The notes under the pieces were generated by a model that was not told where the DNA came from, did no database searches, and worked only from the letters and a program-made list of their open reading frames with translations. 32,000 bases of DNA from Planctopirus limnophila DSM 3776 (GTDB lineage Bacteria > Planctomycetota > Planctomycetia > Planctomycetales > Planctomycetaceae), in contig NC_014148.1 of NCBI RefSeq assembly GCF_000092105.1, positions 3,420,001 to 3,452,000 on the forward strand. The letters are read 5' to 3'. Shown one piece after another: positions 10,908 through 23,323 of the stretch (within the stretch, counting starts at the first letter, position 1; every line of letters starts with the position of its first letter). Made by a program: the position numbers and the translations under genes.

Positions 10908-12272
10908 TCAAAAGTACCGCCCGGAGAGATGGCAGAGCGGTTTAATGCACCGGTCTTGAAAACCGGCATACCCGCAAGGGTATCCAGGGTTCGAATCCCT
11001 GTCTCTCCGCTGAGTTTTCTTCAAAAAGCCCCTGGTTTTCAGGGGTTTTTCTTTTTTGCCGGTCTCTTCCGGTAAAACTTCAGAAGTGTCAGGTTTTGCC
11101 TCCAAATGCCCCGTTGTGACGCCTCCGCGCTGCAACTGGCGCTGCAACGGCAGACAATCGACCGCCTTCTTCTGCTCGGCCAGGTCAATGTGCGTGTAAC
11201 GTGCCGCTGTGAGGACAGGCGTTGAATGCCGGGCCAGCTTCTGGGCGGTCGTCAACGAAACGCCGCTTCGTCCCAGGTTCGTGATGAACGTGTGACGCAG
11301 TGCATGAAAATCGGCGTATCGCCCGTTGGCGTCCTTGTAGGGTATGCCCGCTTCCTGGAGATCAAACTTCAAAAGTTTTCCCGCATAGCGATACTTCGCC
11401 CAATCTCCCGGCCACAAAGGTGTTCTTGCAGGCTTGCCGGCAAGCCATACTTGAAGTTCACTCCGCAGCTCTTCCGACAAGGGCAATTCGTCTTCACGCC
11501 GACGCTTGGAGTACGCAGCCCGCACCATCACAGTGGGCGGCGAGCGATCAAGCGAAATACTTTCACGAGTCAAGGAGGCCAGTTCTGACGCCCTCAGGCC
11601 TGTAGCACTCGCGACGAGATACAGCATCCGCCGATCTTCACCCCTGAACCCCAGGTACTCCGCGCCACTGGCTGCCGTTGTCAGCAATAGCGTCAACTCC
11701 GCATCGGAAAGTGCTCGACGATCGTGCCGCCGATCGACTTGCACGTTCAACATTTCGAGACGGACCAAAGGATCTTCCCCGATCCGCTTTTCGAGGCACA
11801 GCCAGCGAGTCAGCTGCTTGATGGCTCTCAAGTAATGGTTCGAAGTTTGGGCACTAATCCCCTGCTTATCCCCCTTCTTTGCTCTCAGATCGGCCAGAAC
11901 TTTGGCAATCGATTCAGCACGAAGTTCTGCCAGACGTCGAACTTTGCAAAGTTCGAGGAGCTTCCGGCAGCGTGTCAGAACCAGGCTGACTTGCCCTTCT
12001 GAAACTTGCTTGGCCCGCAAGGACTGCTCGAACGCCAGGAGATGTTCATCCAGAGATTCGTCCTTGAATCGAGCCGCAGGACTCAACAGCCCGGCCTGAA
12101 TCATGGAAGATTCCCGTTCCAGCTTGGCTGCAAGTTGCTGAGTGGCCCCCTTATCGGTGAAGCCGGGCACAGTCTTCAGTTGGCCGTCATAGTCGCGATA
12201 CCGGACGTACCACTTGCGAACCTTAACGGTCTTGCCGTTCTTCTTGTAAGTCGGTCGATAGATCGAAGCCAC
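10908..12272 (-). CDS. int: tyrosine-type site-specific integrase
   Basis: 454 aa. The N-terminal arm-type domain begins MASIYRPTYKKNGKTVKVRKWYVRYRDYDG. The catalytic region includes LVASATGLRASELASL (Arg I), ADFHALRHTFITNL (H-x-x-R) and ARHSTPVLTAARYTHID (His/Tyr). After the catalytic Tyr the frame stays open for about 95 codons. That tail runs antisense through the terminator hairpin, the att core and the tRNA 5' half before reaching the stop at 10908-10910. Confidence 0.9.
   Translation of the reverse strand: MASIYRPTYKKNGKTVKVRKWYVRYRDYDGQLKTVPGFTDKGATQQLAAKLERESSMIQAGLLSPAARFKDESLDEHLLAFEQSLRAKQVSEGQVSLVLTRCRKLLELCKVRRLAELRAESIAKVLADLRAKKGDKQGISAQTSNHYLRAIKQLTRWLCLEKRIGEDPLVRLEMLNVQVDRRHDRRALSDAELTLLLTTAASGAEYLGFRGEDRRMLYLVASATGLRASELASLTRESISLDRSPPTVMVRAAYSKRRREDELPLSEELRSELQVWLAGKPARTPLWPGDWAKYRYAGKLLKFDLQEAGIPYKDANGRYADFHALRHTFITNLGRSGVSLTTAQKLARHSTPVLTAARYTHIDLAEQKKAVDCLPLQRQLQRGGVTTGHLEAKPDTSEVLPEETGKKEKPLKTRGFLKKTQRRDRDSNPGYPCGYAGFQDRCIKPLCHLSGRYF
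10923..11009 (+). tRNA. tRNA-Ser (anticodon UGA), class II with long variable arm
   Basis: The cloverleaf was folded by hand. Acceptor stem GGAGAGA/TCTCTCC plus discriminator G; anticodon stem CCGGT/ACCGG with loop CTTGAAA (anticodon TGA); variable arm ATACCC-GCAA-GGGTAT; T arm CAGGG-TTCGAAT-CCCTG. CCA is not encoded. TTGACA at 10869-10874 is a possible -35 element. Confidence 0.93.
10952..11021 (+). repeat. attL: left copy of the island direct repeat (3' 58 nt of tRNA-Ser plus trailer)
   Basis: 10952-11013 is identical (62/62) to 23145-23206. The match extends to 11021/23214 with one mismatch (69/70). Confidence 0.9.
11029..11057 (+). terminator. rho-independent terminator downstream of tRNA-Ser (hairpin flanked by an A-tract and a T-tract, so potentially bidirectional)
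   Basis: The stem 11029-11034 cccctg / 11040-11045 cagggg has the loop gtttt and is followed by tttttctttttt. It is preceded by aaaaa, so the minus-strand transcript would also see the hairpin followed by CUUUUU. It lies inside the C-terminal tail of the integrase ORF. Confidence 0.8.
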
Positions 12273-12275
12273 GTT

Positions 12276-12494
12276 CTATCCCTTCCGTTTTTGAAGTGGT
12301 GGGGCCATGGGGACTGGGCACCCTGCCGCAATCCATTCCTGAATATCCGAAACTCTCCAGCGTGTCGATTTACCGACGCGGACAGGTGCAGGCAGTTTCC
12401 CCGCACTCCGCATCCGCCAAAGCGTTCTCAATGAGATGCTCAGCATACTCGCGACACTCTCCGCTGTCGCCAGTATTGGGTTGTTCTGATCCAT
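12276..12494 (-). CDS. xis: AlpA/MerR-like helix-turn-helix excisionase-type DNA-binding protein
   Basis: The start is set at Met 12494 (MDQNNPILATAESVASMLSISLRTLWRMRSAGKLPAPVRVGKSTRWRVSDIQEWIAAG). This matches the typical AlpA/excisionase pattern (LS.S.RT..R....G.fP.P...G....W...dI..Wi). It ends 3 nt upstream of the integrase start. Confidence 0.8.
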   Translation of the reverse strand: MDQNNPILATAESVASMLSISLRTLWRMRSAGKLPAPVRVGKSTRWRVSDIQEWIAAGCPVPMAPPLQKRKG

Positions 12495-12563
12495 CAGAGT
12501 TTCCTTTGCAAATTCATTTGTTCCAAAAGAGTTTTTAACACCCACATTACAAGCCATAAATAC

Positions 12564-12854
12564 CTAGCTCGCTCGCCTCATTATGGTTTCCAATTCATCG
12601 AAGGAGATACCTTCTTCTTGAGTATCCAAACGGCTTAGGATGACGCTAATTTCAATAAGGCCGGTTACTGGATCGACTTTATTGTCGATCATCACTCCTC
12701 GTTGAAAAAGCTCCTGCAAGTACTCGAAAGCCTCGTTGTCCGATCTGATTCGAAGGCCTTCTTTTGCTGCGAAGAGAACAACCATCGGTTTGAAATCTTC
12801 CAAAATCATCAATAAACGTTTTCGATCTCTACGGGCTTTGCGTTCTCGACTCAT
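12564..12854 (-). CDS. hypothetical protein (96 aa), translationally coupled to the upstream rep-like gene
   Basis: The start Met at 12854 overlaps the stop of the 12851..14140 ORF in an ATGA arrangement (12851-12854 tcat on the + strand). The N-terminus is basic (MSRERKARRDRKR). No family was recognised. Confidence 0.55.
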   Translation of the reverse strand: MSRERKARRDRKRLLMILEDFKPMVVLFAAKEGLRIRSDNEAFEYLQELFQRGVMIDNKVDPVTGLIEISVILSRLDTQEEGISFDELETIMRRAS

Positions 12855-14140
12855 GATTCGGATTCCTTTCCGGAAGTAGAGGTATCGATTTCTGTGCCCC
12901 CGGAACTCCCCGGGTAACCCAGTTGAATCGATTTCACAGCGAGCTTGCTTTGAAAGTCGTGTTGATCGAAATACCAACGCACTTGATCAGACATGGAGGC
13001 CAGTGCGTCTTGTAGCGTGAGTAACCGTTCTCTTGCGGCATATCCCACCAGGCAGCCAGCGACGTGGTTCACATACCAGGTGCTGTCAGCAGAAGCGGTA
13101 TCAAGCGTTCGCTCCAGATTCATCAATGACCCGAATTGATCGGCACATGATTGCACGACCTCCCACCAGGGAAGCACTGTGCGGCGGCTCGTGTTGCAGT
13201 CATCTTGTGCCCGCAGAGAGAACCAGTCTTCGGTGAGGTACTGCCATAATCCCCCGACTTTCTCAATCAGATGATCCAGTTGATCAATGCCAAACTGTTT
13301 GAGAATCTCCCGGCGTAGCTGATACTCAATTCGCCAGACATGCGTTTCCGGCTCAACATTCCAAAGCTCGTAGAACCAGAGCTTGGTACCCCCTTTGAGA
13401 ACTTCCAGGCCCTTGTCATAGATTCTCAATTGAATCGGTGATTTCTTGGCGCCGTGATAAAACGTCTCCAGTGAATCGCCAGTCATATTGTGAGAATGCT
13501 GCACATGCTGCGGGACTCGATGACTCAGGAGAAATGGCAGACTCAGAGGGTCTTTGAGTTGAAGATCAACGGCCAGATCACACCGGCTCGGTTTGATCGA
13601 TCGCACTTTTCCTTCCAGAAGCTCAATCCAACGAACCATCAGATTGACCGCACTGGAGATTCCCATCGACCAGAGCGTTTTCGCATTGATCGAAACATAA
13701 CCATTGGGAGTGTTTCTGTAAGGTTCAGCACTGCGTCCCAGATAGAGATGAAACTCCGGCCATTGGAGATGCCAGCGATAGCTGGGTGGCTTACCACTGG
13801 GGAGGATGAGGAAATGATCGCCAAAGATCGGAACACCTTGAGTTCCTGCGGCCTGCTCCTTGGCTTGATCGAGAATCTGAGTCAGATCCGACCAGTTTGA
13901 ACTCCACTCGATGTAAAGGCCCAGGTCGAGTGTATCAACGCCGCAAATCAGAGGAACAGGAAGGTGATTCTTCTCCCCATTTGTAAAGGGGGCTAGGCGT
14001 GTTACAGACAATGCCTCGCCCCCATGCCGTTGCATGGGATTTTGTTGAGAATCGCCTATTGGGTGTTCTTCAGAAGAAAACTTCTGGGGAATATCGCACC
14101 AGGAATTGTTCTCCTTGCGCGAGAAACTCTCGTCACACAT
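12851..14140 (-). CDS. replication initiation protein, Rep_trans-like (rolling-circle/phage CRI-type initiator family)
   Basis: 429 aa carrying the spaced motif series typical of the replication initiation factor family: PSRCDLAVDL, then TFYHGAKKSPIQLRIYDKGLE, then HVWRIEYQLRRE. Confidence 0.65.
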   Translation of the reverse strand: MCDESFSRKENNSWCDIPQKFSSEEHPIGDSQQNPMQRHGGEALSVTRLAPFTNGEKNHLPVPLICGVDTLDLGLYIEWSSNWSDLTQILDQAKEQAAGTQGVPIFGDHFLILPSGKPPSYRWHLQWPEFHLYLGRSAEPYRNTPNGYVSINAKTLWSMGISSAVNLMVRWIELLEGKVRSIKPSRCDLAVDLQLKDPLSLPFLLSHRVPQHVQHSHNMTGDSLETFYHGAKKSPIQLRIYDKGLEVLKGGTKLWFYELWNVEPETHVWRIEYQLRREILKQFGIDQLDHLIEKVGGLWQYLTEDWFSLRAQDDCNTSRRTVLPWWEVVQSCADQFGSLMNLERTLDTASADSTWYVNHVAGCLVGYAARERLLTLQDALASMSDQVRWYFDQHDFQSKLAVKSIQLGYPGSSGGTEIDTSTSGKESES

Positions 14141-14774
14141 GAAATCGCTCGCCCATTGAAATGAAGAAACTGTTTACGACGATTGTCGAAACAGCTTCAG
14201 CTGCCTGCTTTACAGGCCAGAAACATGGGCGGGGGCGAGCCTATCAACAAAAATATCCGCGCTACCAAAGACTCAGCAGTAACCACAAAAAAGACCGTGC
14301 AAAACGATCCCCCACTGAGCGGTGCATTCAACGGTGCGGAAAGCTCGGCGACAAACTGTCGCTTTTAAATAATGTATCCCATGCTCTGTGCTGAACTCTC
14401 AACCCAGGAACATCCTGGAACTGAACGGCACCCATTCAACTTGAACCATGATTTCAATAGAATCATTACCAACTTGAATTCGACACCGCCGAAAAAAGGT
14501 TATCCGCAACTTTCCAGTTGTCTAGGGGAGTTTCTCAGAATTGTAATCACTACATCATTTGTATTTATAATTGCAAATATCTCTCTTCTATTGGCCTTGC
14601 AGGCCGTTCGGTCACTCCGCTCCGATCTCCGGACTCCGCTTACGCTGCGCCGGAATCTTCGCTGCGTTCCCTCACGCCTCATAAGCCAGAAAGGCCGAGC
14701 GAAACACGCCTCAGCCCAGGCTGGCACCTTTGAGGGGTGCCCGTCGCCTGATCTGAGGGTTTCCACTAGGGGCC

Positions 14775-16322
14775 GTGAGTGATGCCGGGTTTTCCAGAAC
14801 ACTCATCGATGGTATGAAGGCCAACCCCTCTGATATATTGCGGGCTCCCTTAGGAGCCACAGACCGCATGTTCGAACAAGCCTTCAAAAATATCGACGAC
14901 GTCCTGCGAAAAGAGTCCGGTTGCACGACCGAACTCGATTACACCGAGCAAACCTCCTGGCTGCTCTTCCTCAAGTATCTCGACGGGCTGGAACAGGACA
15001 AAGCCGACGAAGCCGCCCTGGAGGGGAAGAAGTACACCTTCATCCTCGACCCGCCCTATCGCTGGGAGGCGTGGGCTGCTCCCAAGGGGAAAGACGGCCT
15101 GATCGATCACAACCGGGCACAGACCGGCGACGACCTGCGCGACTTCGTCAACGAGAAGCTCTTCCCTTATCTCCACGGGTTCAAGCAGAAAGCCATCGGG
15201 CCGAACACCATCGAGTACAAAATTGGTGAAATCTTCGGCGAGATCAAAAACAAAATCTCCAGCGGCTACAACCTGCGAGAAATTATCGATCACATCGATG
15301 AACTGCGGTTCCGCTCGCAGACCGAGAAGCACGAGCTGTCGCATCTCTACGAAGCCAAGATCAAGAACATGGGCAACGCCGGGAGGAACGGCGGCGAGTA
15401 TTACACGCCCCGTCCCCTCATCCGGGCAATGATCCAAGTGGTGAAACCGAAGATCGGCGAACGGATCTACGATGGCGCGGTCGGCTCGGCGGGCTTCCTG
15501 TGCGAGGCGTTCGAGTATCTGAGAGCGAAGCGAGGTTTAACAACCAAAGAGGCCAAGACGCTGCAGGAGAAGACGTTCTACGGCAAAGAGAAAAAGTCGC
15601 TGGCCTACGTCATCGCGATCATGAACATGATCCTGCATGGCATCGAAGCGCCGAACATCGTCCACACCAATACGCTGACGGAGAACCTCGCGGATATCCA
15701 GGAGAAGGATCGTGTCGACGTGGTGCTGGCCAATCCACCATTTGGCGGCAAGGAACGAAAGGAGGTTCAGCAGAACTTCCCCATCCGCACAGGCGAGACC
15801 GCGTTCCTGTTCTTGCAGCACTTCATCAAGATTCTGAAAGCGGGGGGACGGGGCGGCGTGGTCATCAAGAACACGTTCCTCTCGAATACCGACAACGCCT
15901 CGGTGAGTTTGCGGAAGCTGCTGCTCGAGAGCTGCAACCTGTACGCCGTGCTCGATTGCCCCGGCGGCACGTTCCAGGGGGCGGGCGTGAAGACCGTCGT
16001 GCTCTTCTTTGAGAAGGGAGCACCAACGCGGAAAGTCTGGTTCTACCAGCTCGACCCAGGCCGCAACCTGGGCAAGACGAACCCGCTCAACGATGCCGAT
16101 TTGGCTGAGTTCATCGAATTGCAGGCGACCTGCGCCGATTCGCCGAAGTCGTGGAGTGTGGAGGCCACCACGATCGACCAATCGACATTCGACCTGTCGG
16201 TGAAGAACCCCCACGGCGGCGAGGAAGTGACGCATCGCAGCCCCGAAGAGATCATGGACGAGATCGCCGCCTTGGACGCCGAGAGTGCCGAAGTCCTGCA
16301 AACCATCCGGGGGCTGATATGA
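14775..16322 (+). CDS. hsdM: type I restriction-modification system, DNA methyltransferase subunit M (N6-adenine)
   Basis: Motifs present are an HsdM N-terminal block (TEQTSWLLFLKYLD), a SAM-binding motif (IYDGAVGSAGFL) and the catalytic VLANPPFGG. The ORF-track start is GTG at 14775; ATG at 14814 or 14868 are equally plausible. The stop overlaps the hsdS start (ATGA at 16319-16322). Confidence 0.92.
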   Translation: MSDAGFSRTLIDGMKANPSDILRAPLGATDRMFEQAFKNIDDVLRKESGCTTELDYTEQTSWLLFLKYLDGLEQDKADEAALEGKKYTFILDPPYRWEAWAAPKGKDGLIDHNRAQTGDDLRDFVNEKLFPYLHGFKQKAIGPNTIEYKIGEIFGEIKNKISSGYNLREIIDHIDELRFRSQTEKHELSHLYEAKIKNMGNAGRNGGEYYTPRPLIRAMIQVVKPKIGERIYDGAVGSAGFLCEAFEYLRAKRGLTTKEAKTLQEKTFYGKEKKSLAYVIAIMNMILHGIEAPNIVHTNTLTENLADIQEKDRVDVVLANPPFGGKERKEVQQNFPIRTGETAFLFLQHFIKILKAGGRGGVVIKNTFLSNTDNASVSLRKLLLESCNLYAVLDCPGGTFQGAGVKTVVLFFEKGAPTRKVWFYQLDPGRNLGKTNPLNDADLAEFIELQATCADSPKSWSVEATTIDQSTFDLSVKNPHGGEEVTHRSPEEIMDEIAALDAESAEVLQTIRGLI

Positions 16323-17560
16323 AGGCTGGATGGATATACAAGACGCTAGACGACGTTTGCGAATTCAATAATGGACTTTGGAAGGGAGAGAAGCCACCCT
16401 TCGTCACAGTTGGCGTAATAAGGAACACCAACTTCACGAAAGAAGGCACGTTAGATGATTCCGACATTGCCTATATTGAGGTTGAGGCAAAGAAATTCGA
16501 GAAACGTCGCTTGGTCTTTGGCGACCTAATCTTGGAGAAGTCGGGGGGGGGGCCGAAGCAACCAGTAGGACGTGTTGCGCTCTTCGACAAAAGGGCGGGG
16601 GATTTTTCCTTCAGCAACTTCACAGCTGCGATACGCGTGAAAGATCCGAAAACGTTGGACTTCCGCTTTCTGCACAAGTTTCTTTTCTGGACGCACTTGT
16701 CTGGTGTCACAGAAACGATGCAGAGCCATTCGACAGGTATTCGAAATCTCAATGGCGACGTTTACAAATGCATTGAGGTACCGCTTCCCCCGCTGACCGA
16801 GCAGCGGCGGATTGTGGGGATTCTTGACGAAGCGTTTGAGGGCCTCGCCACCGCCAAAGCGAACGCCGAAAAGAACCTCCAAAACGCCCGCGCCCTCTTC
16901 GAAAGCCACCTCCAGGCCGTCTTCACCCAACGCGGCGACGGGTGGGTGGAGAAAACTGTGAAGGACGTTGCCTCGCCAATCAAAGGCTCAATTCGCACTG
17001 GACCTTTCGGTAGTCAATTACTGCACAGCGAGTTCGTTGATGAAGGTATTGCTGTTCTCGGCATCGACAACGCCGTCGCCAATGAATTCCGCTGGGGAAA
17101 AAGCCGGTTCATCACGAAAGACAAGTTCGGCCAGCTTGAGCGCTACCGAGTGTATCCCGGAGATGTGCTGATAACGATCATGGGAACATGTGGCCGCTGC
17201 GCGGTTGTTCCGGACGACATTCCGACCGCGATCAATACAAAGCATATCTGCTGCATCACGCTTGACTGGAAAAAGTGCTTGCCGAGCTACCTCCACCTCT
17301 ACTTCCTACACGCACAACAGTCGCAAGCATTCTTAGCGAAACATGCCAAGGGCGCAATCATGGCTGGACTGAACATGGGCCTAATTCAAGAGCTTCCGGT
17401 ATTGCTCCCACCGACTCAGGTTCAGTCAGCAATCGTCGAAGCAGCCAACGATCTCCGCGAAGAAACCCAACGCCTCGAATCCCTCTACCAGCGCAAGCTC
17501 GCCGCGCTCGATGAATTGAAAAAGTCACTGCTGCACCGCGCCTTCAGCGGGGAACTGTAG
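16319..17560 (+). CDS. hsdS: type I restriction-modification system, specificity subunit S
   Basis: The start is set at ATG 16319 (MKAGWIYKTLDDVCEFNNG), overlapping the hsdM stop. There are two target-recognition domains separated by the conserved central helix LPPLTEQRRIVGILDEAFEGL, and a C-terminal conserved helix (QRLESLYQRKLAALDELKKSLLHRAFSGEL). The 56 codons upstream in the ORF track (16151-16318) lie inside hsdM and are not used. Confidence 0.9.
   Translation: MKAGWIYKTLDDVCEFNNGLWKGEKPPFVTVGVIRNTNFTKEGTLDDSDIAYIEVEAKKFEKRRLVFGDLILEKSGGGPKQPVGRVALFDKRAGDFSFSNFTAAIRVKDPKTLDFRFLHKFLFWTHLSGVTETMQSHSTGIRNLNGDVYKCIEVPLPPLTEQRRIVGILDEAFEGLATAKANAEKNLQNARALFESHLQAVFTQRGDGWVEKTVKDVASPIKGSIRTGPFGSQLLHSEFVDEGIAVLGIDNAVANEFRWGKSRFITKDKFGQLERYRVYPGDVLITIMGTCGRCAVVPDDIPTAINTKHICCITLDWKKCLPSYLHLYFLHAQQSQAFLAKHAKGAIMAGLNMGLIQELPVLLPPTQVQSAIVEAANDLREETQRLESLYQRKLAALDELKKSLLHRAFSGEL
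16543..16552 (+). repeat. homopolymeric G10 tract inside the hsdS coding sequence
   Basis: The sequence reads tc-gggggggggg-cc at 16541-16554 and encodes ..EKSGGGPKQ.. (codons 75-78 of HsdS). It is the longest homopolymer I noticed in the window. Confidence 0.95.
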
Positions 17561-17574
17561 GAGATGCCCATATC

Positions 17575-18987
17575 ATGATCACCACTCCCGAACAAATCGA
17601 CGCCTGGCGTGCGGCACGCTCGGAACATCAAAACCTCGAATTCAAAGAGGCCAAGAACCAATTCGATAACCGCAAGCTCTTCCGCTATTGCGTCGCTTTG
17701 GCCAACGAAGGGGGCGGGCACTTGCTGCTGGGAATCGAAGACGTTCCACCTCGCAAAGTGGTGGGAACGGCTGCATTCAACGATCCGGTGGAGATGGCCG
17801 CGAAGATATTTCAAACTTTGAACTTTCGAGTCGAAATCGAGGAAGTTGCTCATCCCGATGGCCGTGTTCTCGTGTTTCATATCCCCAGCCGGCCCTTGGG
17901 AACCGCCTATCAATACGAAGGTGCTTACCTGATGCGGGCGGGCGAAGAGCTTGTCGCGATGAGCGAAGATCGCTTGCGGCAAATCTTTTCCGAAGGTCAA
18001 CCTAATTGGCTTTCACAACCCGCAAAGACCGATGCCAGTGACGATGAGGTCATTGCGTTGCTCGACACGCAGGCTTACTTCGACCTGATGAAGTTGCCCT
18101 ATCCTACCCAACGAACGGGCGTTCTGGAAAGATTGGCGAGCGAAGGATTGATCAAAGGCGACTCGAATGGGTGGGAGATTTCGAACCTCGCTGCCATTCT
18201 TCTGGCGAAAAGACTCGATGGGTTCTCGCACGCACTGGCAAGGAAAGCGCCCCGTGTGGTGATCTACGACGGTGTGAACAAACTCAAGACAAAAGATGAC
18301 AAACCCGGAATGCGGGGCTACGCCGTAGGATTCGAGGCGTTAGTGGACTTTGTGCATTCGGCCGCACCGCAGAATCGGTTCATCGAAGAAGCCGTGCGAA
18401 AAGAAGTCAAAATGTTCCCGAAGCAAGCCCTTCGCGAACTTATTGCGAATGCACTTGTTCATCAAGACTTTCTGATGACCGGAGCATCCGTGATGATCGA
18501 GATGTACGACGATCGAGTGGAAATCTCGAATCCCGGACTTCCACCGATCCAGGTCGAGCGATTCATTGATGAGTATCGCTCCCGAAACGAACGCCTGGCC
18601 GATCTGATGCGTCGGCTGGGAATCTGCGAGGAGAAAGGCAGTGGCATCGACAAGGTGATCAGTGCGTCGGAAGTGTTTCAACTTCCCGCCCCAGATTTTC
18701 GCGCCGGAGAGTTGCGAACCACGGCTGTCCTGTTCGCCCATCAAGATTTTCCGGTCATGACAAAGGCGGATCGCATCCGAGCGTGCTATCAGCACTGTTG
18801 CTTGCAGTACGTGAGCGGGCAGCGGATGTCAAATCAGTCGCTCCGGCAGCGGTTCGGAGTGGACGATTCAAAAGTTGCAACCGTGTCGTTGGTGATCACC
18901 GCGACGAAAGACGAAGGTCTGATCAAAGCGGATGATTCTGAAAGCAGTTCGACTCGTTACGCTCGGTATCTGCCGTTCTGGGCGTAA
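17575..18987 (+). CDS. AlbA_2 (Schlafen-like) / HATPase_c_4 ATP-binding protein with C-terminal wHTH, embedded in the R-M operon
   Basis: 470 aa. The N-terminal block EHQNLEFKEAKNQFDNRKLFRYCVALANEGGGHLLLGIED is typical of the AlbA_2 putative DNA-binding domain. The central block KQALRELIANALVHQDF...IEMYDDRVEISNPGLPP...RSRNERLADLMRRLGICEEKGSGIDKV is typical of the RecG-C-terminal-like HATPase_c_4 module. GGAG lies 11 nt upstream of the ATG, and the gene starts 15 nt after the hsdS stop. Confidence 0.8.
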   Translation: MITTPEQIDAWRAARSEHQNLEFKEAKNQFDNRKLFRYCVALANEGGGHLLLGIEDVPPRKVVGTAAFNDPVEMAAKIFQTLNFRVEIEEVAHPDGRVLVFHIPSRPLGTAYQYEGAYLMRAGEELVAMSEDRLRQIFSEGQPNWLSQPAKTDASDDEVIALLDTQAYFDLMKLPYPTQRTGVLERLASEGLIKGDSNGWEISNLAAILLAKRLDGFSHALARKAPRVVIYDGVNKLKTKDDKPGMRGYAVGFEALVDFVHSAAPQNRFIEEAVRKEVKMFPKQALRELIANALVHQDFLMTGASVMIEMYDDRVEISNPGLPPIQVERFIDEYRSRNERLADLMRRLGICEEKGSGIDKVISASEVFQLPAPDFRAGELRTTAVLFAHQDFPVMTKADRIRACYQHCCLQYVSGQRMSNQSLRQRFGVDDSKVATVSLVITATKDEGLIKADDSESSSTRYARYLPFWA

Positions 18988-19082
18988 GTGCTTTAATGCA
19001 AAAGGAAATCCACAACCACCTAAGACGCAATGTATTGACATGAAAAGACTTGTGCTCTTTAACGCAATCCAGAATGCATGCT

Positions 19083-19229
19083 CTGAACGAAGCCAAAACC
19101 AGAGCCGACCGCATCAACACCACGCGCGCCGGTGCCAGTTGGGGAGTCATCGAAGGAAACCGTATGTGGCAGGGATATCCGATTGCTATGAGACTTCTCG
19201 AAGGCTTTAGCCAGTGCGGCACAGCTTGA
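19083..19229 (+). pseudogene. decayed 5' fragment of a second hsdR allele (first about 48 codons, start codon lost)
   Basis: Translated in frame, it reads (L)NEAKTRADRINTTRAGASWGVIEGNRMWQGYPIAMRLLEGFSQCGTA*. This aligns without gaps to the N-terminus of the intact HsdR at 20345 (MNEAETRAEHIDPALAAAGWGVVAGSRIRREYPIAPGRLEGFGRRGK), at about 50 percent amino-acid identity by hand count. ATG is replaced by CTG, and similarity ends at a TGA at 19227-19229. Confidence 0.7.
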
Positions 19230-19280
19230 TCAACGAATTTAGTAGACCGAGTTTTCACTGGGGCACTCCAGGAACCGCAG

Positions 19281-20339
19281 ATGGCCGACGAAACACCTCC
19301 CTCCGAGATGATTCTGTACCAGACCGAAGATGGCAGGACTCGCATCCAGTGCCGCTTCGAGAACGAAACCATTTGGCTGACGCAGGCCCTGATCGCTGAA
19401 TTGTTCCAGGTCACTCCGCAAAACGTGACACTCCATCTGAAGGCGATCTACCGGGAAGGGGAACTCGACGAGGGGGCAACTTGTAAGGATTGCTTACAAG
19501 TTCGATCCGAAGGAGGCCGCGAAGTCACTCGCAAACTTCGCCATTACAGCCTGCCTGTCATTCTGGCCGTTGGTTATCGCGTTCGCAGTCATCGCGGCAC
19601 CCAGTTTCGCCAGTGGGCGACGGCCCGCTTGAGCGAATACCTGGTCAAAGGGTTCGCGATGGACGACGAGCGGCTCAAGAATCCGCCCGGCAAAGGTCAA
19701 AAAGACTACTTCGACGAGCTGCTGGAACGCATTCGAGACATCCGCTCCAGCGAACGGCGGTTCTATCAGAAAGTCCTCGACATTTATGCGACCAGTGTCG
19801 ATTACTCGCCGAAAACGGAGACCTCGCAGGAGTTCTTCGCCACAGTGCAAAACAAAATGCACTGGGCGGCACACGGTCACACTGCCGCCGAAGTGATCCA
19901 TCGCCGAGCCGACGCCAACCAGCCACTGATGGGAATGAAATCAACCCGTCCGGGCGGTGTGATCCGCAAAGATGATGTCTCAATCGCCAAGAACTACCTC
20001 AACGAGGACGAACTGCAGGCTTTGAATCGCATCGTCAATGCCTATCTCGAATTTGCCGAGCTGCAGGCGCTCAACCGAAAACCGATGACAATGGTCGACT
20101 GGATCGTCAAACTGGATGATTTCCTGAAGTTGTCGGGACGTGAATTGCTGCAACACGCTGGAAAAATTTCCGCTGAAGACGCCCGCAACAAGGCAGAAGC
20201 CGAGTACGCGCGCTATCGACAGTTTTTAGACTCCCAGCCGCGCCGAGTGGACGACGACCTGGAGCAAGCCGCAAAAGAGATTCAGAAACTTCCGAAGCCG
20301 AAAAGGCCAAGAAAACCCAAAGACGGCAGTGAAGGTTGA
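19281..20339 (+). CDS. rhuM: RhuM-family protein (virulence protein RhuM-like), embedded in the R-M operon
   Basis: 352 aa. The N-terminal and central blocks are characteristic of the RhuM family: MILYQTEDGRTRIQCRFENETIWLTQALIAELFQVTPQNVTLHLKAIY, YSLPVILAVGYRVRSHRGTQFRQWATARLSEYLVKGF and DYFDELLERIRDIRSSERRFYQKV. Its stop lies 5 nt before the hsdR ATG. Confidence 0.85.
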   Translation: MADETPPSEMILYQTEDGRTRIQCRFENETIWLTQALIAELFQVTPQNVTLHLKAIYREGELDEGATCKDCLQVRSEGGREVTRKLRHYSLPVILAVGYRVRSHRGTQFRQWATARLSEYLVKGFAMDDERLKNPPGKGQKDYFDELLERIRDIRSSERRFYQKVLDIYATSVDYSPKTETSQEFFATVQNKMHWAAHGHTAAEVIHRRADANQPLMGMKSTRPGGVIRKDDVSIAKNYLNEDELQALNRIVNAYLEFAELQALNRKPMTMVDWIVKLDDFLKLSGRELLQHAGKISAEDARNKAEAEYARYRQFLDSQPRRVDDDLEQAAKEIQKLPKPKRPRKPKDGSEG

Positions 20340-20344
20340 ACACC

Positions 20345-22780
20345 ATGAACGAGGCGGAAACCAGAGCCGAACACATCGACCCAGCGCTCGCCGCCGCTGG
20401 CTGGGGAGTCGTTGCAGGGAGCCGTATTCGGCGGGAGTACCCCATCGCTCCAGGACGGCTTGAAGGGTTTGGCCGGCGCGGGAAATCACTTACTGCCGAT
20501 TACGTGTTGGAATACCGCAATACAAAACTCGCTATCGTCGAGGCCAAGGCCTGGGATGAAGAACTGACCGAAGGGGTCGGCCAGGCAAAGAACTATGCCG
20601 AAAAACTCGAAGTTCGCTTCACTTACTCGACCAATGGACAAGGGATCTACGGCATCGACATGCGGGAGGGAACCGAAGAGGAAGTCCCCCGATATCCGAC
20701 ACCCGATGAACTGTGGAATCTTACTTTCGCCGAACAGAACGCCTGGCGCGACCGATTCGCCGCGATTCCGTTTGAAGACCGGGGCGGCTACTTCCAGGGC
20801 CGCTACTATCAGGACATCGCCATCGAGCGGGTACTGGAAGCCATCGCCGCCGGGAAGCCGCGAATTCTGCTCACACTGGCGACCGGTACGGGCAAGACGT
20901 TCATCGCGTTTCAACTCGCCTGGAAGCTGTTCCAGAGCCGCTGGAATCTGAGCCGCGAACCGTCACGCCGTCCACGCATTCTGTTCCTCGCCGATCGAAA
21001 CATTCTTGCCAACCAGGCCTTCAATGCCTTTTCCGCTTTCCCGGAAGATGCAATGGTGCGGATCGAACCAGGCGAAATCAAAAAGAAAGGCAAAGTCCCC
21101 AAGAACGGCAGCCTGTTCTTCACGATCTTCCAGACGTTCATGAGTGGACCACCCAAAAACGGTGAGCCGTCCCCCTACTTCGGCGAATATCCGGCGGACT
21201 TTTTCGACTTCATTGTCATCGACGAATGCCATCGGGGCGGCGCAAACGACGAAAGCACCTGGCGCGGCATCCTCGACTATTTCGCTCCTGCCGTGCAGCT
21301 CGGCCTGACCGCGACGCCCAAGCGGAAAGACAACGTCGACACCTATGCATACTTCGGCGAACCCGTCTACGTCTATTCGCTGAAAGATGGCATCAACGAC
21401 GGCTTCCTGACGCCGTTCAAGGTGAAGCAGATTTCCACCACGCTGGATAACTACATCTACACTGCTGACGACGAACTGATCGAAGGAGAGATTGAGGAGG
21501 GCAAGCGGTACGAGGAGAAAGACTTCAACACGATCATCGAGATCCGCGAACGGGAAGCGTATCGTGTGAAGTTGTTTATGGAGTTAATCGACCAGCGGCA
21601 GAAGACTCTTGTCTTCTGTGCCACTCAGATTCATGCGCTGGTAGTTCGCGACCTGATCAATCAGATCAAGACGAGCAAAGAACCGAACTACTGTGTTCGT
21701 GTGACCGCAGATGATGGCAGCCTGGGGGAACAGTATCTGCGGGACTTTCAGGACAACGAAAAAAGTATTCCGACGATTCTGACGACATCGCAAAAGCTCT
21801 CGACTGGCGTCGATGCGCGAAACGTGCGAAATATTGTGCTGATGCGGCCAATCAAGTCCATCATCGAATTCAAGCAGATCGTCGGCCGCGGGACTCGCCT
21901 CTACGACGGTAAGGATTACTTTACGATCTACGATTTCGTCGAGGCTCATCACCATTTTGCCGACCCCGAATGGGACGGCGAACCAGTCGATGATGAACCA
22001 TGCGAGAAGTGTGGACAGAATCCTTGTGAATGCATAAAGCCCCCCTCTCAGCCGTGCGAAGAATGCGGGGAAAGCCCATGCGTTTGTGTTCCAAACCCGT
22101 GCTCGAATTGCGGCAAACAGCCGTGCGAATGCCCCCGGGAGCCATGTTCCCAATGCGGGAAAATGCGGTGCAAGTGCCAGCGCAAACGCATCACAAGGGT
22201 CAAACTGGCCGACGGCAAGGAACGAACGATCCAGCACATGATGGCAACGAGCTTTTGGCATCCGGATGGAACACCCATGTCGGCTCAGCAATTCATGCAA
22301 AGCCTATACGGCAAATTCCCCGACTTCTTCAGCGACGAGACCGAACTACGAACGCTGTGGAGTTCGCCGGACACACGGGCCAAACTGCTGGAAGGGCTGG
22401 CAGAAAAAGGATTCGGCTCCGACCAGATGGCTGAGATGCAACGGATCATCGACGCCGAAAAGAGCGACCTGTTTGACGTGTTGGCCCACGTTGCCTTTGC
22501 CCTGACACCGCTGACCCGCGAAGAACGCGCCGCCCGTGCAAAGCTGGAAATTAGTACTCACTTCGATGACAAGCGGCAGGCATTTCTTGCATTTGTGCTG
22601 GCGCAATACGTGAAGGAAGGCGTGGGCGAACTGGACTCGGACAAACTCGGCCCACTGCTGAAACTCAAATACAACAATGCCATCGCGGATGCGGTCATCG
22701 ACCTGGGACGCCCCGAAGAGATTGGCAAAGTGTTCAATGGATTCCAGAAATTCCTTTACCAGTCGCAAACCGTTGTTTGA
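20345..22780 (+). CDS. hsdR: type I restriction enzyme, R subunit (EcoEI-like architecture: HSDR_N nuclease, SF2 helicase, EcoEI_R_C tail) with a Cys-rich insertion
   Basis: The start is set at ATG 20345 (MNEAETRAEHIDPALAAAGW); the track uses TTG at 20336. The nuclease core is ADYVL...AIVEAK. Helicase motif I is LATGTGKTFIAF, motif II is VIDECHRG, and the run continues with LGLTATPKR and later motifs. The C-terminal block SDLFDVLAHVAFALTPLTREERA is typical of the EcoEI R C-terminal domain. A 4x CxxCGxxxCxC block lies at 21998-22180. Confidence 0.9.
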   Translation: MNEAETRAEHIDPALAAAGWGVVAGSRIRREYPIAPGRLEGFGRRGKSLTADYVLEYRNTKLAIVEAKAWDEELTEGVGQAKNYAEKLEVRFTYSTNGQGIYGIDMREGTEEEVPRYPTPDELWNLTFAEQNAWRDRFAAIPFEDRGGYFQGRYYQDIAIERVLEAIAAGKPRILLTLATGTGKTFIAFQLAWKLFQSRWNLSREPSRRPRILFLADRNILANQAFNAFSAFPEDAMVRIEPGEIKKKGKVPKNGSLFFTIFQTFMSGPPKNGEPSPYFGEYPADFFDFIVIDECHRGGANDESTWRGILDYFAPAVQLGLTATPKRKDNVDTYAYFGEPVYVYSLKDGINDGFLTPFKVKQISTTLDNYIYTADDELIEGEIEEGKRYEEKDFNTIIEIREREAYRVKLFMELIDQRQKTLVFCATQIHALVVRDLINQIKTSKEPNYCVRVTADDGSLGEQYLRDFQDNEKSIPTILTTSQKLSTGVDARNVRNIVLMRPIKSIIEFKQIVGRGTRLYDGKDYFTIYDFVEAHHHFADPEWDGEPVDDEPCEKCGQNPCECIKPPSQPCEECGESPCVCVPNPCSNCGKQPCECPREPCSQCGKMRCKCQRKRITRVKLADGKERTIQHMMATSFWHPDGTPMSAQQFMQSLYGKFPDFFSDETELRTLWSSPDTRAKLLEGLAEKGFGSDQMAEMQRIIDAEKSDLFDVLAHVAFALTPLTREERAARAKLEISTHFDDKRQAFLAFVLAQYVKEGVGELDSDKLGPLLKLKYNNAIADAVIDLGRPEEIGKVFNGFQKFLYQSQTVV

Positions 22781-22878
22781 TGAATATGACCTAAAAATAT
22801 CCAATGGAAGAAACGTTCTATTCGTGGAGTCACGGCCTGCCGAGAGGAGCCCACCAGGTAAATAACGGGTGACTTCCT

Positions 22879-23142
22879 TTACTTTCGACTCGCGACGACA
22901 TCAGAGTCTTTCAATGGCGAGGCACCCCCTACAATTTCCAGAATCGCCCGCTGGAGGTGCCTGGGTAGAGTTGGCCAGGCTTCGACGATTGCCCTCACTT
23001 CACGATCATTCTGTGAGGACTGATGACTCTGAGTGTCAGCCGGTGACAGGGGTCGATTCAATGGCGCTGCAACAGGCGCTGCAAGGCTACTGAGGCCATC
23101 AAGTAACTCATTGCTATTTAAAGTAGTTACGGAAAACGTCAT
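22879..23142 (-). CDS. hypothetical 87-aa ORF at the extreme right end of the island (start codon 2 nt from the att repeat)
   Basis: The ATG at 23142-23140 abuts the attR core, which starts at 23145. The ORF is in frame with the integrase ORF across a reconstituted attP (see findings). It contains the helix-like motif AIVEAWPTLPRHLQRAILEIV. No independent promoter or RBS is evident inside the island. Confidence 0.4.
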   Translation of the reverse strand: MTFSVTTLNSNELLDGLSSLAAPVAAPLNRPLSPADTQSHQSSQNDREVRAIVEAWPTLPRHLQRAILEIVGGASPLKDSDVVASRK

Positions 23143-23144
23143 TT

Positions 23145-23214
23145 GGTCTTGAAAACCGGCATACCCGCAAGGGTATCCAGGGTTCGAATCCCTGTCTCTC
23201 CGCTGACTTTTCTT
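23145..23214 (+). repeat. attR: right copy of the direct repeat (displaced 3' fragment of tRNA-Ser, not a functional tRNA)
   Basis: It has the same sequence as 10952-11021 but lacks the 5' acceptor strand, the D arm and most of the 5' strand of the anticodon stem (upstream flank ...aaaacgtcattt). Confidence 0.9.
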
Positions 23215-23323
23215 GCTAACCGGTGATGTCCATTGGTCTTTGGTTCTACCTCGCCTGAATGAAGGTTGGGTTCAATCGGAGAGCACAGTCCGATGGCTCG
23301 AATTTTCCTGATCGAGTACTGCT

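What the first reader, a model, noticed from the sequence alone, without database searches (positions are those of the whole stretch)
22879..23214. The att core lies inside the integrase ORF, so excision would fuse int in frame to the 87-codon ORF at the opposite island end
The int ORF (12272 down to 10908) stays open after the catalytic Tyr and reads through the att core as ...QRRDRDSNPGYPCGYAGFQD. In the integrated state it then continues into the chromosomal tRNA 5' half as RCIKPLCHLSGRYF*, giving 454 aa. The attL-to-attR offset is 12193 nt, which is 1 mod 3. Int codons start at positions equal to 2 mod 3, so at attR the same frame falls on positions equal to 0 mod 3. The ATG at 23142 of the 22879..23142 ORF is in exactly that frame. 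In a circular attP molecule the reading frame would therefore be ...GFQD-Q-MTFSVTTLNS...AIVEAWPTLPRHLQRAILEIV...SRK*, a 528-aa Int with a different tail 88 residues long. The small ORF has its ATG only 2 nt from the core and no island-internal upstream region of its own, which fits it being the true 3' end of int. Elements with attP inside a gene are known, for example SSV-type archaeal integrases and integration-dependent immunity in some mycobacteriophages. In those cases integration switches the C-terminus of a key protein. Here the switch would mark whether the element is integrated or free. One caveat is that in-frame continuity has a 1-in-3 chance expectation. A second caveat is that the tail also crosses the antisense side of a terminator hairpin (11029-11057).
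Basis: inference. Interest (0 to 1): 0.72.

Follow-up and report, generated by a model that had tools for sequence, protein, structure and literature searches.

The report
Integrase gene spans its attachment site
A 12-kb mobile island inserted in a serine tRNA gene carries an integrase gene that runs across the island's own recombination site, so insertion and excision swap the enzyme's tail; this layout was known from one myxobacterial phage (Mx8) and here proves to be common in Planctomycetota.

Summary
tRNA-Ser(TGA) is at 10923-11010. A 70-nt direct repeat (10952-11021 = 23145-23214, one mismatch) bounds a 12.2-kb island. The int ORF (12272..10908) reads antisense through the tRNA and gives 454 aa. 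Joining the ends as attP gives one open 528-aa frame ending in the 87-codon ORF.

This is not chance. In seven other islands, found through the tail motif alone, the virtual attP fusion is also in frame and open (8 of 8 with the window). At least eight natural contiguous ORFs carry Int, tRNA-antisense core and the same tail motif (xVVxAWPxLPxxIRxAIxALV). In 41 of 42 loci the tail frame stays open back through the tRNA T-arm. The motif is under purifying selection (dN/dS 0.06-0.18). AlphaFold2 predicts a disordered linker and a confident helical hairpin at the motif.

Four copies of TTGCAGCGC, the only ones in the window, flank the core and look like arm-type Int sites.

The closest precedent is phage Mx8, where attP lies inside int and integration converts intP to intX. 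It is not SSV or mycobacteriophage immunity. There is no sequence homology to Mx8. I class it as a new variant of a known kind: a family across Planctomycetota with a conserved tail. The tail's function is inferred, not shown.

The parts
10923..11010 (+). tRNA-Ser(TGA), the integration target. Its 3' two-thirds are part of attL.
   Evidence: ARAGORN
10952..11021 (.). attL copy of the att core. The perfect 62 nt are 10952-11013. It runs from the anticodon stem to 11 nt past the tRNA 3' end.
   Evidence: the repeat finder family D2; script alignment
10908..12272 (-). int as it reads in the integrated state: 454 aa, GTG start. The catalytic domain is about residues 1-375, with Tyr359 at 11196-11198. 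The last 14 residues (RCIKPLCHLSGRYF) come from the antisense of the chromosomal 5' part of the tRNA.
   Evidence: ORF list. PF00589 matches residues 214-363. NCBIfam Xer-type profiles end at about residue 370. 3166 homologues with E<=1e-10.
11022..11160 (-). Linker part of int between the catalytic domain and the core. It is predicted disordered, varies in length among homologues, and doubles as the P arm of attP.
   Evidence: AF2 pLDDT below 50 for residues 379-483; homologue tails
11127..11147 (-). Two copies of TTGCAGCGC 12 nt apart (translated LQRQLQR). Candidate arm-type Int sites of the P arm.
   Evidence: The 9-mer occurs only 4 times in the window, against 0.5 expected and 0 of 100 shuffles reaching 4. 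The same pair sits at the same distance from the tRNA in L133, with a variant in L134.
11024..11050 (.). G+C-rich hairpin with T-runs on both strands, just after the tRNA 3' end. It is the island-supplied tRNA terminator and lies inside the int ORF.
   Evidence: Terminator scan; similar hairpins in L039 and L054
12276..12557 (-). Excisionase-like HTH_17/AlpA gene ending 4 nt upstream of int.
   Evidence: Pfam PF12728, E 4.7e-11. The same HTH_17-int order occurs in L006, L133 and L134.
11022..23144 (.). Island body. Genes: int, xis, Rep_trans-like ORF (14140..12851), type I R-M (hsdM 14775-16322, hsdS about 16310-17560, hsdR 20336-22780), AlbA_2/HATPase_c_4 protein (17575-18987), RhuM (19281-20339), and the tail ORF.
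   Evidence: ORF list and Pfam. The hsdM, hsdS and hsdR names rest on my reading of the translations, not on a family search.
23145..23214 (.). attR copy of the att core, a displaced 3' fragment of the tRNA.
   Evidence: The same junction next to the same sulfatase gene occurs in L001 and L050.
22879..23142 (-). The 87-codon 'tail' ORF. In attP it is the 3' end of int, residues 442-528 of the 528-aa form.
23064..23084 (-). Two more copies of TTGCAGCGC 12 nt apart (translated AAPVAAP, a different frame of the same DNA word). Candidate P' arm sites.
   Evidence: conserved in L001 and L050
22918..23016 (-). Conserved tail motif ...REVRAIVEAWPTLPRHLQRAILEIVGG. It is predicted to form a helix-turn-helix-like hairpin (fusion residues 483-512).
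   Evidence: Tail HMM hit scoring 62. 607 proteins with E<=0.01. dN/dS 0.06-0.18. AF2 pLDDT about 90 for residues 491-510.

Best explanation
The island is a tRNA-Ser-targeting integrative element whose integrase gene runs across its own attP.

The gene is laid out as follows: a lambda-like tyrosine integrase (N-terminal beta domain, core-binding domain, catalytic domain); a roughly 65-aa disordered linker that also holds the P-arm sites and the terminator the island supplies to the tRNA; 20 codons that are the antisense of the tRNA 3' part (the core); a roughly 45-aa variable stretch that holds the P'-arm sites; and a conserved helical hairpin of about 30 aa (AIVEAWPTLPRHLQRAILEIV).

When attP is intact, the gene makes the 528-aa protein. 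That happens on the excised circle or at the junction of tandem copies. Integration cuts the gene at the core. The prophage-state gene then makes a 454-aa protein in which the last 88 residues are replaced by 14 residues read from the tRNA antisense, and the tail is left at the far end of the island. Excision restores the long form. Recombination therefore rewrites the C-terminus of the enzyme that catalyses it, as in phage Mx8 (intP to intX).

Shown here: the geometry, the reading-frame continuity and its conservation, the existence of contiguous natural genes, and selection on the motif as protein.

Inferred: the tail tunes activity or directionality. The most likely version is that the long form is the efficient attP x attB integrase and the short prophage form is less active, which would stabilise the integrated state.
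For: Geometry and frame in the window.

Family-level frame test. Loci were found by tblastn of the tail motif alone, so their selection did not depend on the int frame. Wherever a direct repeat links the tail's upstream region to the 3' end of an integrase on the same strand, the virtual attP is in frame and open. This holds for L020, L032, L039, L047 and L048, where the Int HMM hit is in the same frame, and for L053 and L054, where the post-Tyr part of more distant integrases is in frame. With the window that is 8 of 8. Seven of seven by chance would be (1/3)^7, about 5e-4. The offsets mod 3 differ between loci and the linker lengths vary widely, so the frame must be maintained.

Contiguous natural ORFs of Int, core and tail: P0028, P0036, P0050, P0098, P0103 and P0112; P0132 and P0133; L033 and L100. 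The loci of P0050, P0036 and P0112 carry no full tRNA. The tRNA called in L002 has 3 unpaired positions of 7 in the acceptor stem.

Int homologues keep the frame open for a median of 122 aa past the Tyr, and 72 of 118 read through a tRNA antisense.

Tails sit at tRNA fragments: 42 of 87 against 1 of 199 controls. The tail frame is open back through the T-arm in 41 of 42, against 13 and 11 of 42 for the other two frames. Twelve of 42 have no ATG, GTG or TTG between T-arm and motif.

dN/dS of the motif is 0.06-0.18 in three related strains.

AF2 on the virtual fusion gives a core pLDDT above 90, a linker (379-483) below 50, and tail helices 483-499 and 502-512 with pLDDT about 90.

No curated profile covers anything beyond about residue 375.

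Precedent: in Mx8, attP lies within int and integration creates a new 3' end (PMC6070905; PMC4383910). The Mx8 Int sequence shows the same layout.
Against: There is no expression or excision data, so the 528-aa protein has not been observed.

The hairpin at 11024-11050 also scores as a terminator on the int strand. If it terminates int transcripts efficiently, little full-length mRNA would reach the core in either state.

In the window lineage the tail has its own ATG 2 nt after the core, conserved in L001 and L050, so separate translation in the integrated state is possible.

Some adjacent int-tail pairs are not clean fusions. L098 is out of frame with an int that carries a nonsense codon. 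L026 and L035 are in the same frame but have stops between the parts. I read these as decayed or tandem junctions, but they are exceptions.

A subfamily of about 390 aa stops roughly 30 aa after the Tyr, so the extension is not needed for catalysis.

The functional effect of the tail is taken by analogy from Mx8, whose tail is unrelated in sequence.
Confidence: 0.85

Rival explanations
1. Coincidence. int simply lacks a stop codon until it has run through the tRNA, the 87-codon ORF is an unrelated or spurious small ORF at the other island end, and the in-frame relation is the 1-in-3 chance outcome.
For: For the window alone the frame match has a prior of one third. The small ORF has no Pfam or NCBIfam match. 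The word-index search with the single sequence found only one homologue.
Against: The virtual fusion is in frame in 8 of 8 independent islands. Contiguous natural fusions exist. The motif occurs in 607 proteins. dN/dS is 0.06-0.18. The tail frame is open through the T-arm in 41 of 42 loci.
Confidence: 0.03
2. The tail is mainly a separate small protein. In the integrated state it would be translated from its own start (ATG 23142 here), perhaps by read-through from the chromosomal sulfatase gene, and would act in trans, for example as a regulator or Int partner. The continuity with int would be secondary.
For: An ATG lies 2 nt after the core and is conserved in L001 and L050. Gene callers report hundreds of tails as ORFs of 31-96 aa. 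30 of 42 loci have some ATG, GTG or TTG between T-arm and motif. No terminator was found on the - strand between the sulfatase gene and the ORF.
Against: Only 11 of 42 loci have an in-frame ATG, and 12 of 42 have no canonical start at all between T-arm and motif. Separate translation does not explain why the frame matches int in every paired island, or why int keeps about 100 extra open codons up to the core. The two readings do not exclude each other.
Confidence: 0.1
3. The conservation beside the core is at the DNA level. The flanks would be attP arms (Int, Xis or IHF-type sites), and the open frames and the 'motif' would be by-products of conserved binding sites, not a translated tail.
For: Part of the flanks is clearly constrained as DNA. 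The 9-mer TTGCAGCGC occurs four times, only beside the core, and is read in two different frames (LQRQLQR and AAPVAAP). The N-terminal 45 codons of the tail ORF show dN/dS above 1.
Against: In the motif region proper, synonymous changes far outnumber replacements (dS 0.27-0.58 against dN 0.02-0.09). The amino-acid motif is kept across Planctomycetaceae, Gemmataceae, Pirellulales, Isosphaeraceae, Phycisphaerae and Ca. Kuenenia, next to different tRNAs. A stop follows within about 5-20 codons of the motif in all of them.
Confidence: 0.02

Closest known systems
Myxococcus xanthus phage Mx8 integrase (intP converted to intX on integration)
   Same: attP lies inside the int coding sequence, downstream of the catalytic Tyr. 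The target is the 3' part of a tRNA gene. Integration gives int a new, short, host-encoded 3' end. An excisionase gene sits just upstream of int (PMC6070905; PMC4383910; record AF396866). The Mx8 Int sequence (533 aa) has the same order: catalytic domain, linker, tRNA-antisense peptide (STGLEPV), and a tail of about 110 aa. From my own memory of Tojo et al. 1996 and Magrini et al. 1999, which I could not read here: 112 residues are replaced by 13, IntX is less active, and both flanks of the core inside int are needed for attP function.
   Different: There is no detectable sequence similarity in the integrase or the tail (BLASTP E about 0.08), and tblastn of this Int finds nothing in 50,697 phage records. 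The element here is a 12-kb R-M island, not a phage. The tail carries a short motif conserved across a whole phylum, which is not a feature I know to be described for Mx8.
SSV-type ('suicidal') archaeal integrases (SSV1, pTN3, pT26-2)
   Same: The att site lies within the integrase gene, so integration partitions the gene (PMC8371274).
   Different: There the split separates an N-terminal part from the catalytic part and yields two inactive pseudogenes, and the family is PF16795. Here the whole catalytic enzyme (PF00589) stays intact and only a C-terminal appendage is exchanged. That review states that self-disrupting recombinases are found only in archaea.
Integration-dependent immunity of mycobacteriophages (BPs, Brujita, Charlie)
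   Same: attP lies inside a gene, so integration changes the C-terminus of the protein and with it the element's state. The Brujita Int structure (5vfz) is the best Foldseek match to the core of the model.
   Different: By my own knowledge of Broussard et al. 2013, which I did not read here, attP lies in the repressor gene in those phages, not in int, and the removed C-terminus is a degradation tag. Here the gene is int, and the tail is a structured, conserved motif rather than an ssrA-like tag.
Lambda-type heterobivalent tyrosine integrases with arm-type sites
   Same: AF2 predicts an N-terminal beta domain (residues 1-36) and core-binding and catalytic domains that align with full-length lambda Int over about 370 columns. 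Repeated 9-mers flank the core on both sides. A Xis-like gene is adjacent.
   Different: In lambda the arms are non-coding and int ends before attP. Here both presumed arms lie inside the int reading frame.

Membership tests
Tyrosine recombinase / phage integrase (PF00589) | Catalytic domain with the R..HxxR..Y signature and a match to the family profile above its cut-off | tested here: met
   PF00589 scores 63.7 bits against a cut-off of 27.1, over residues 214-363. HALRH and RYTH are visible in the translation. Foldseek gives probability 1.00 to lambda Int, Tn1549 Int, Xer and Cre.
Mx8-type 'int spans attP' arrangement (intP/intX) | The att core lies inside the int ORF, downstream of the catalytic Tyr | tested here: met
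   Tyr359 is at 11196-11198. The core 11021..10952 is read as codons about 418-440 of the same ORF.
Mx8-type 'int spans attP' arrangement (intP/intX) | attP reconstitutes a longer ORF, and integration replaces a long C-terminal segment with a few host-encoded residues | tested here: met
   In silico: 528 aa against 454 aa, with 88 residues replaced by 14. The fusion is in frame in 8 of 8 islands. Natural contiguous genes exist.
Mx8-type 'int spans attP' arrangement (intP/intX) | The prophage form has altered (lower) recombination activity | not testable with these tools
   This needs recombination assays with the 528-aa and 454-aa proteins.
Mx8-type 'int spans attP' arrangement (intP/intX) | Sequence homology to Mx8 Int or its tail | tested here: not met
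   BLASTP best E is 0.079 over 63 residues. There was no tblastn hit in the phage collection. The resemblance is in layout, not in ancestry closer than the tyrosine recombinase superfamily.
SSV-type suicidal integrase | [quoted passage not shown] | tested here: not met
   The integrated-state ORF keeps residues 1-440 including all catalytic boxes. The Pfam hit is PF00589 only.
Mycobacteriophage integration-dependent immunity | attP lies inside the repressor gene | tested here: not met
   The ORF crossing the core is the integrase. No other ORF was seen crossing the core apart from the 62-aa ORF noted in passing.
tRNA-targeting genomic island (Islander-type definition) | Full tRNA at one end, displaced identical 3' tRNA fragment at the other, and an integrase inside | tested here: met
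Heterobivalent (lambda-like) integrase with arm-type sites | N-terminal arm-binding domain plus repeated arm sites on both sides of the core | tested here: inconclusive
   AF2 predicts a beta domain at residues 1-36, and the alignment with full-length lambda Int spans 371-379 columns. Four copies of TTGCAGCGC flank the core. Binding has not been shown.

The most novel reading that the evidence does not exclude
In a large family of Planctomycetota integrative elements, targeting many different tRNAs in either orientation, the integrase carries a conserved C-terminal helical module that is attached to the enzyme only while attP is intact. The element would then read its own topological state (free or tandem against single integrated copy) straight from the primary structure of its recombinase. 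It would use that to set directionality or copy number, with the attP arms and the host tRNA's terminator all packed inside one reading frame.
Probability: 0.45. Interest if true: 0.75.

Novelty: new variant of a known kind. Interest (0 to 1): 0.62.

Why it matters
Mx8 has stood for 25 years as a near-isolated bacterial case of an enzyme that rewrites its own gene. A 2021 review still describes integrases with the att site inside the gene as an archaeal speciality (PMC8371274).

The layout turns out to be maintained by selection in hundreds of elements across a phylum, with a short conserved tail motif. That makes a curiosity into a testable, general control principle for integration and excision.

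It also has practical consequences:
- Integrase ORFs that 'run into' tRNA genes should not be trimmed as annotation errors.
- The small 'hypothetical' ORFs beside displaced tRNA fragments are the missing 3' ends of int and mark island boundaries.
- Int proteins cloned from integrated copies for genetic tools in Planctomycetota would lack the native tail.

Tried and rejected
- tblastn of Int against 50,697 phage records gave no match, so Mx8 could not be reached by homology. I fetched it by accession instead.
- The tail-motif scan of IMG/VR viral contigs confirmed no locus.
- The first motif alignment (A2) was too short or too diverse for two tools. I replaced it with A3.
- Alignment A4, which mixed full-length integrases with small tail ORFs, was mis-aligned by MAFFT: the tails stacked on W276 of the core. 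I discarded it and used A5.
- The contigs of the close Int homologues P0004 and P0014 (L133, L134) show the int-side arm repeats and the tRNA, but no tail or second core within 10 kb. They added nothing to the frame test.
- ARAGORN's 'full tRNA-Ser' inside the contiguous ORF of L002 looked like a contradiction. Its acceptor stem has three unpaired positions of seven, so I treat it as a pseudo-tRNA and the locus as attP-type.
- L046 has a complex repeat structure and I left it unclassified.
- The original Mx8 papers (PMC178153, PMC93896, PMC93897) are not held. Details from them are marked as my own knowledge.
- One literature search timed out and two were malformed.
- I considered a census of in-frame ATG codons as a test of independent translation. 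It is only weakly discriminating, because ATG is expected by chance in open frames of this length, so I report it without leaning on it.
Full report
**1. What is in the window**

ARAGORN finds a single tRNA, tRNA-Ser(TGA), at 10923-11010 on the + strand. A 70-nt direct repeat with one mismatch, 10952-11021 = 23145-23214, has a perfect stretch of 62 nt and an offset of 12193 nt. It runs from the anticodon stem of the tRNA to 11 nt past its 3' end. This is the usual signature of an island inserted in the 3' part of a tRNA gene: a full tRNA at attL and a displaced 3' fragment at attR.

Between the repeats lie these genes:
- a tyrosine integrase (12272..10908, - strand; PF00589);
- an HTH_17/AlpA excisionase-like gene ending 4 nt upstream of it (12557..12276);
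- a weak Rep_trans-like ORF;
- a type I restriction-modification system;
- an AlbA_2/HATPase_c_4 protein;
- RhuM.

**2. The observation checks out**

The int ORF does not stop after the catalytic Tyr (RYTH, Tyr359). It stays open for 95 more codons, passes through a terminator-like hairpin (11024-11050) and through the core in antisense (QRRDRDSNPGYPCGYAGFQD), and ends 14 codons later in the chromosomal 5' part of the tRNA. That gives 454 aa.

At the other end, the 87-codon ORF 23142..22879 starts 2 nt from the core, on the same strand. Its frame is open upstream through the attR core with the identical peptide. Joining the ends across the core by script gives one open frame of 528 aa.

**3. 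Is the frame continuity more than a 1-in-3 accident?**

Four independent lines of evidence say it is.

*(a) Int homologues.* There are 3166 homologues with E<=1e-10. Of the best 120, box II could be located in 118. The median extension beyond the Tyr is 122 aa, and 72 contain the tell-tale antisense-tRNA peptides (RDSNPG, GIRT, GFEP...). Only 26 end within 45 aa of the Tyr.

*(b) Contiguous natural genes.* Six of those 120 proteins (P0028, P0036, P0050, P0098, P0103, P0112) continue past the core. They end with the same motif as the window's small ORF, and they align end to end with the virtual 528-aa fusion. An exhaustive HMMER search of 1.84 billion representatives with the small ORF gave 14 hits. 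Among them are P0132, a fragment with an integrase C-terminus, core and tail, and P0133, with an Int linker, core and tail. Most of the remaining small hits begin with antisense-tRNA peptides. The loci of P0050, P0036 and P0112 have no full tRNA, as expected for attP-type DNA. The tRNA that ARAGORN calls in L002 has a broken acceptor stem.

*(c) An unbiased frame test.* I collected loci by tblastn of the tail motif alone, 42 from genomes and 80 from metagenomes, so their selection did not depend on the int frame. Where a direct repeat connects the region upstream of the tail with the 3' end of an integrase on the same strand, I built the virtual attP by script. L020, L032, L039, L047 and L048 have the Int HMM hit in the same frame as the tail. 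L053 and L054 have the post-Tyr part of more distant integrases in that frame. All seven are in frame and open, as is the window.

The repeats are 22-68 nt long, lie in different tRNAs, and have offsets of 0, 1 or 2 mod 3. Seven of seven by chance would be about 5e-4. Because linker lengths differ greatly between members, inheritance from one lucky ancestor cannot explain it: indels would have scrambled the frame without selection.

*(d) Position and start codons.* A strict T-arm hairpin lies within 350 nt upstream of the motif in 42 of 87 tails, against 1 of 199 control windows. The tail frame is open from the motif back through the T-arm in 41 of 42, against 13 and 11 of 42 for the other two frames. 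Only 11 of 42 have an in-frame ATG between T-arm and motif, and 12 of 42 have no ATG, GTG or TTG there at all. The tails are therefore not free-standing genes away from att sites, and many cannot start translation on the island side of the core.

**4. Exceptions**

Among tail-ascertained loci where an integrase lies directly upstream of a tail:
- L033 and L100 are contiguous.
- L026 is in the same frame but has four stops and a truncated int.
- L035 is in the same frame with stops. It comes from a MAG with several related copies, so it may be a junction between different elements.
- L098 is out of frame, with a nonsense codon inside box II of int.

I read these as decayed copies or tandem junctions. 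They do not carry the weight of the paired-end test.

**5. Is the tail coding?**

Two other strains carry the same attR junction next to the same sulfatase gene (L001 and L050). For codons 46-73, the motif region, dN/dS is 0.06-0.18. The same DNA read in the other two frames gives 0.67-1.21 over the whole 73-codon stretch. For codons 1-45 dN/dS is above 1, which is linker-like.

The motif (consensus DPxLxxVVxAWPxLPxxIRxAIxALV, followed by a stop within about 5-20 codons) is found in 607 proteins with E<=0.01. The loci come from Planctomycetaceae, Gemmataceae, Pirellulales, Isosphaeraceae, Phycisphaerae and Ca. Kuenenia (record titles). It matches no Pfam or NCBIfam model, and all curated integrase profiles end at about residue 375.

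AlphaFold2 on the virtual fusion, with alignment A5, gives the following:
- a confident core (pLDDT above 90);
- an N-terminal beta domain (residues 1-36);
- a disordered stretch at 379-483 (pLDDT about 30);
- two helices, 483-499 and 502-512, with pLDDT about 90, exactly at the motif.

Foldseek matches the core to Brujita Int, full-length lambda Int, Tn1549 Int, Xer and Cre over at most about 379 columns. The extension therefore has no solved counterpart.

**6. The flanks also look like attP arms**

The 9-mer TTGCAGCGC occurs four times in the 32-kb window, against 0.5 expected, and no shuffle out of 100 reached four. All four are on the - strand, as two pairs 12 nt apart. One pair (11127-11147) is in the int linker, 106-126 nt from the core. 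The other (23064-23084) is in the tail ORF, 61-81 nt from the core.

They are read in different frames (LQRQLQR and AAPVAAP). The first pair is kept at the same distance from the tRNA in L133 (Int 67% identical), with a variant in L134. The second pair is kept in L001 and L050. This points to DNA-level constraint, and arm-type Int sites are the natural reading, given the lambda-like N-terminal domain.

The hairpin at 11024-11050, immediately after the tRNA 3' end and followed by a long T-run on the tRNA strand, is best explained as the terminator the island supplies to the tRNA it has rebuilt. L039 and L054 have similar hairpins in the same place. The int reading frame therefore contains, in order: the P arm, the tRNA terminator, the core, the P' arm and the tail motif.

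**7. How it most likely works**

*Shown.* Integration and excision must exchange the last 88 residues of Int for 14 unrelated ones, and back again. This arrangement is maintained by selection in a large family.

*Inferred.* The conserved hairpin modulates the enzyme. The only experimental guide is phage Mx8. There, attP lies within int and integration creates a recombinant gene with a new 3' end that is not inactive but has altered properties (PMC6070905; noted also in PMC4383910). From memory of Magrini et al. 1999, IntX is the less active form and this limits excision.

By analogy, I propose that the 528-aa form, made only from circles or tandem junctions, is the efficient attP x attB integrase. 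The 454-aa prophage form would be weaker, stabilising single-copy integration.

A caveat is that the hairpin also scores as a terminator on the int strand. If it works there, it would limit how much mRNA reaches the core in either state.

**8. Comparison with what is known**

- *Mx8.* The layout matches Mx8 feature for feature. Mx8 Int is 533 aa with a catalytic domain, a linker, STGLEPV from the tRNA antisense, and a tail of about 110 aa. An excisionase gene sits just upstream. There is no sequence relationship beyond the superfamily, and the tails are unrelated.
- *SSV type.* It is not SSV-type, because the catalytic enzyme is not split. A 2021 review reserves self-disrupting integrases for archaea (PMC8371274).
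- *Mycobacteriophage integration-dependent immunity.* It is not this either, because the gene crossed by attP is int, not a repressor.

My verdict is a new variant of a known kind. The principle is Mx8's. What is new is the family, its phylum-wide spread, its use of many tRNAs in both orientations (T-arm in sense in L011, L030, L045, L059, L112 and L116), and a conserved, structured tail motif.

**9. Scores**

- Confidence that int truly spans attP and that the 528-aa protein is the product of the intact attP form: 0.85.
- Confidence in the specific regulatory role: about 0.45.
- Interest: 0.62. A specialist would recognise the Mx8 principle, but would be surprised by its breadth and by the conserved tail. 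The question of what the tail does is now directly testable.

Noticed in passing
window 11127-11147 and 23064-23084 (- strand): TTGCAGCGC occurs only four times in the window, as two pairs 12 nt apart on either side of the att core. The pairs are read in two different frames (LQRQLQR and AAPVAAP). They are candidate arm-type Int binding sites inside coding DNA.
   Followed up: partly
window 11024-11050: A bidirectional terminator-like hairpin lies directly after the tRNA-Ser 3' end. It is supplied by the island and sits inside the int linker ORF. On the int strand it could truncate int mRNA before any stop codon.
   Followed up: partly
window 14775-22780: The island cargo is a type I R-M system (hsdM, hsdS, hsdR) interrupted by an AlbA_2/HATPase_c_4 gene (17575-18987) and a RhuM gene (19281-20339). 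This is a defence-type load on an island of only 12 kb.
   Followed up: no
window 12851-14140 (- strand): A 429-aa ORF has only a weak Rep_trans match (E 0.0016, below the cut-off) and no NCBIfam match. It may be the element's replication or transfer initiator.
   Followed up: no
window 23139-23327 (- strand): A 62-aa ORF in another frame runs from the end of the sulfatase gene through the attR core. It stops in an ATGA overlap with the ATG of the tail ORF. It may be spurious, or it may give translational coupling in the integrated state.
   Followed up: no
window 19084-19219 and 20346-20481: A 136-nt direct repeat at 71% identity sits upstream of rhuM and at the start of hsdR (family D1). I have no explanation for it.
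   Followed up: no
L032 (10010, 12393, 14303), L033 (9980, 12011), L038 (9998, 12800), L090 (6384, 7480): Several loci carry two or three tail motifs 1-3 kb apart on one strand. This looks like a pile-up of decayed elements at one att site.
   Followed up: no
L035:2250-2500 (also L022, L023; one Phycisphaerales MAG): A second C-terminal-looking motif (MIARLPLTDAEKADAVRRLLADFR*) is encoded in a different frame just upstream of the AWPTLP tail. It could be a second tail type, a frameshift site, or a junction of two elements.
   Followed up: no
L011, L030, L045, L059, L112, L116: Here the tail is preceded by a tRNA T-arm in the sense orientation; in L011 and L030 ARAGORN calls a full tRNA there. 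Some family members are therefore inserted the other way round relative to the tRNA, and the tail frame is still open through it.
   Followed up: partly
L130:10001-11644 (contig of 178,751 nt): An intact fused Int-core-tail gene (P0112) sits in a long contig beside a DDE transposase, with no second core copy within 10 kb. It is an attP-type arrangement that is not obviously on an excised circle.
   Followed up: partly
L002:11238-11326: ARAGORN calls a full tRNA-Ser inside a contiguous Int-tail ORF, but three of seven acceptor-stem positions are unpaired. It is probably a pseudo-tRNA within attP.
   Followed up: yes
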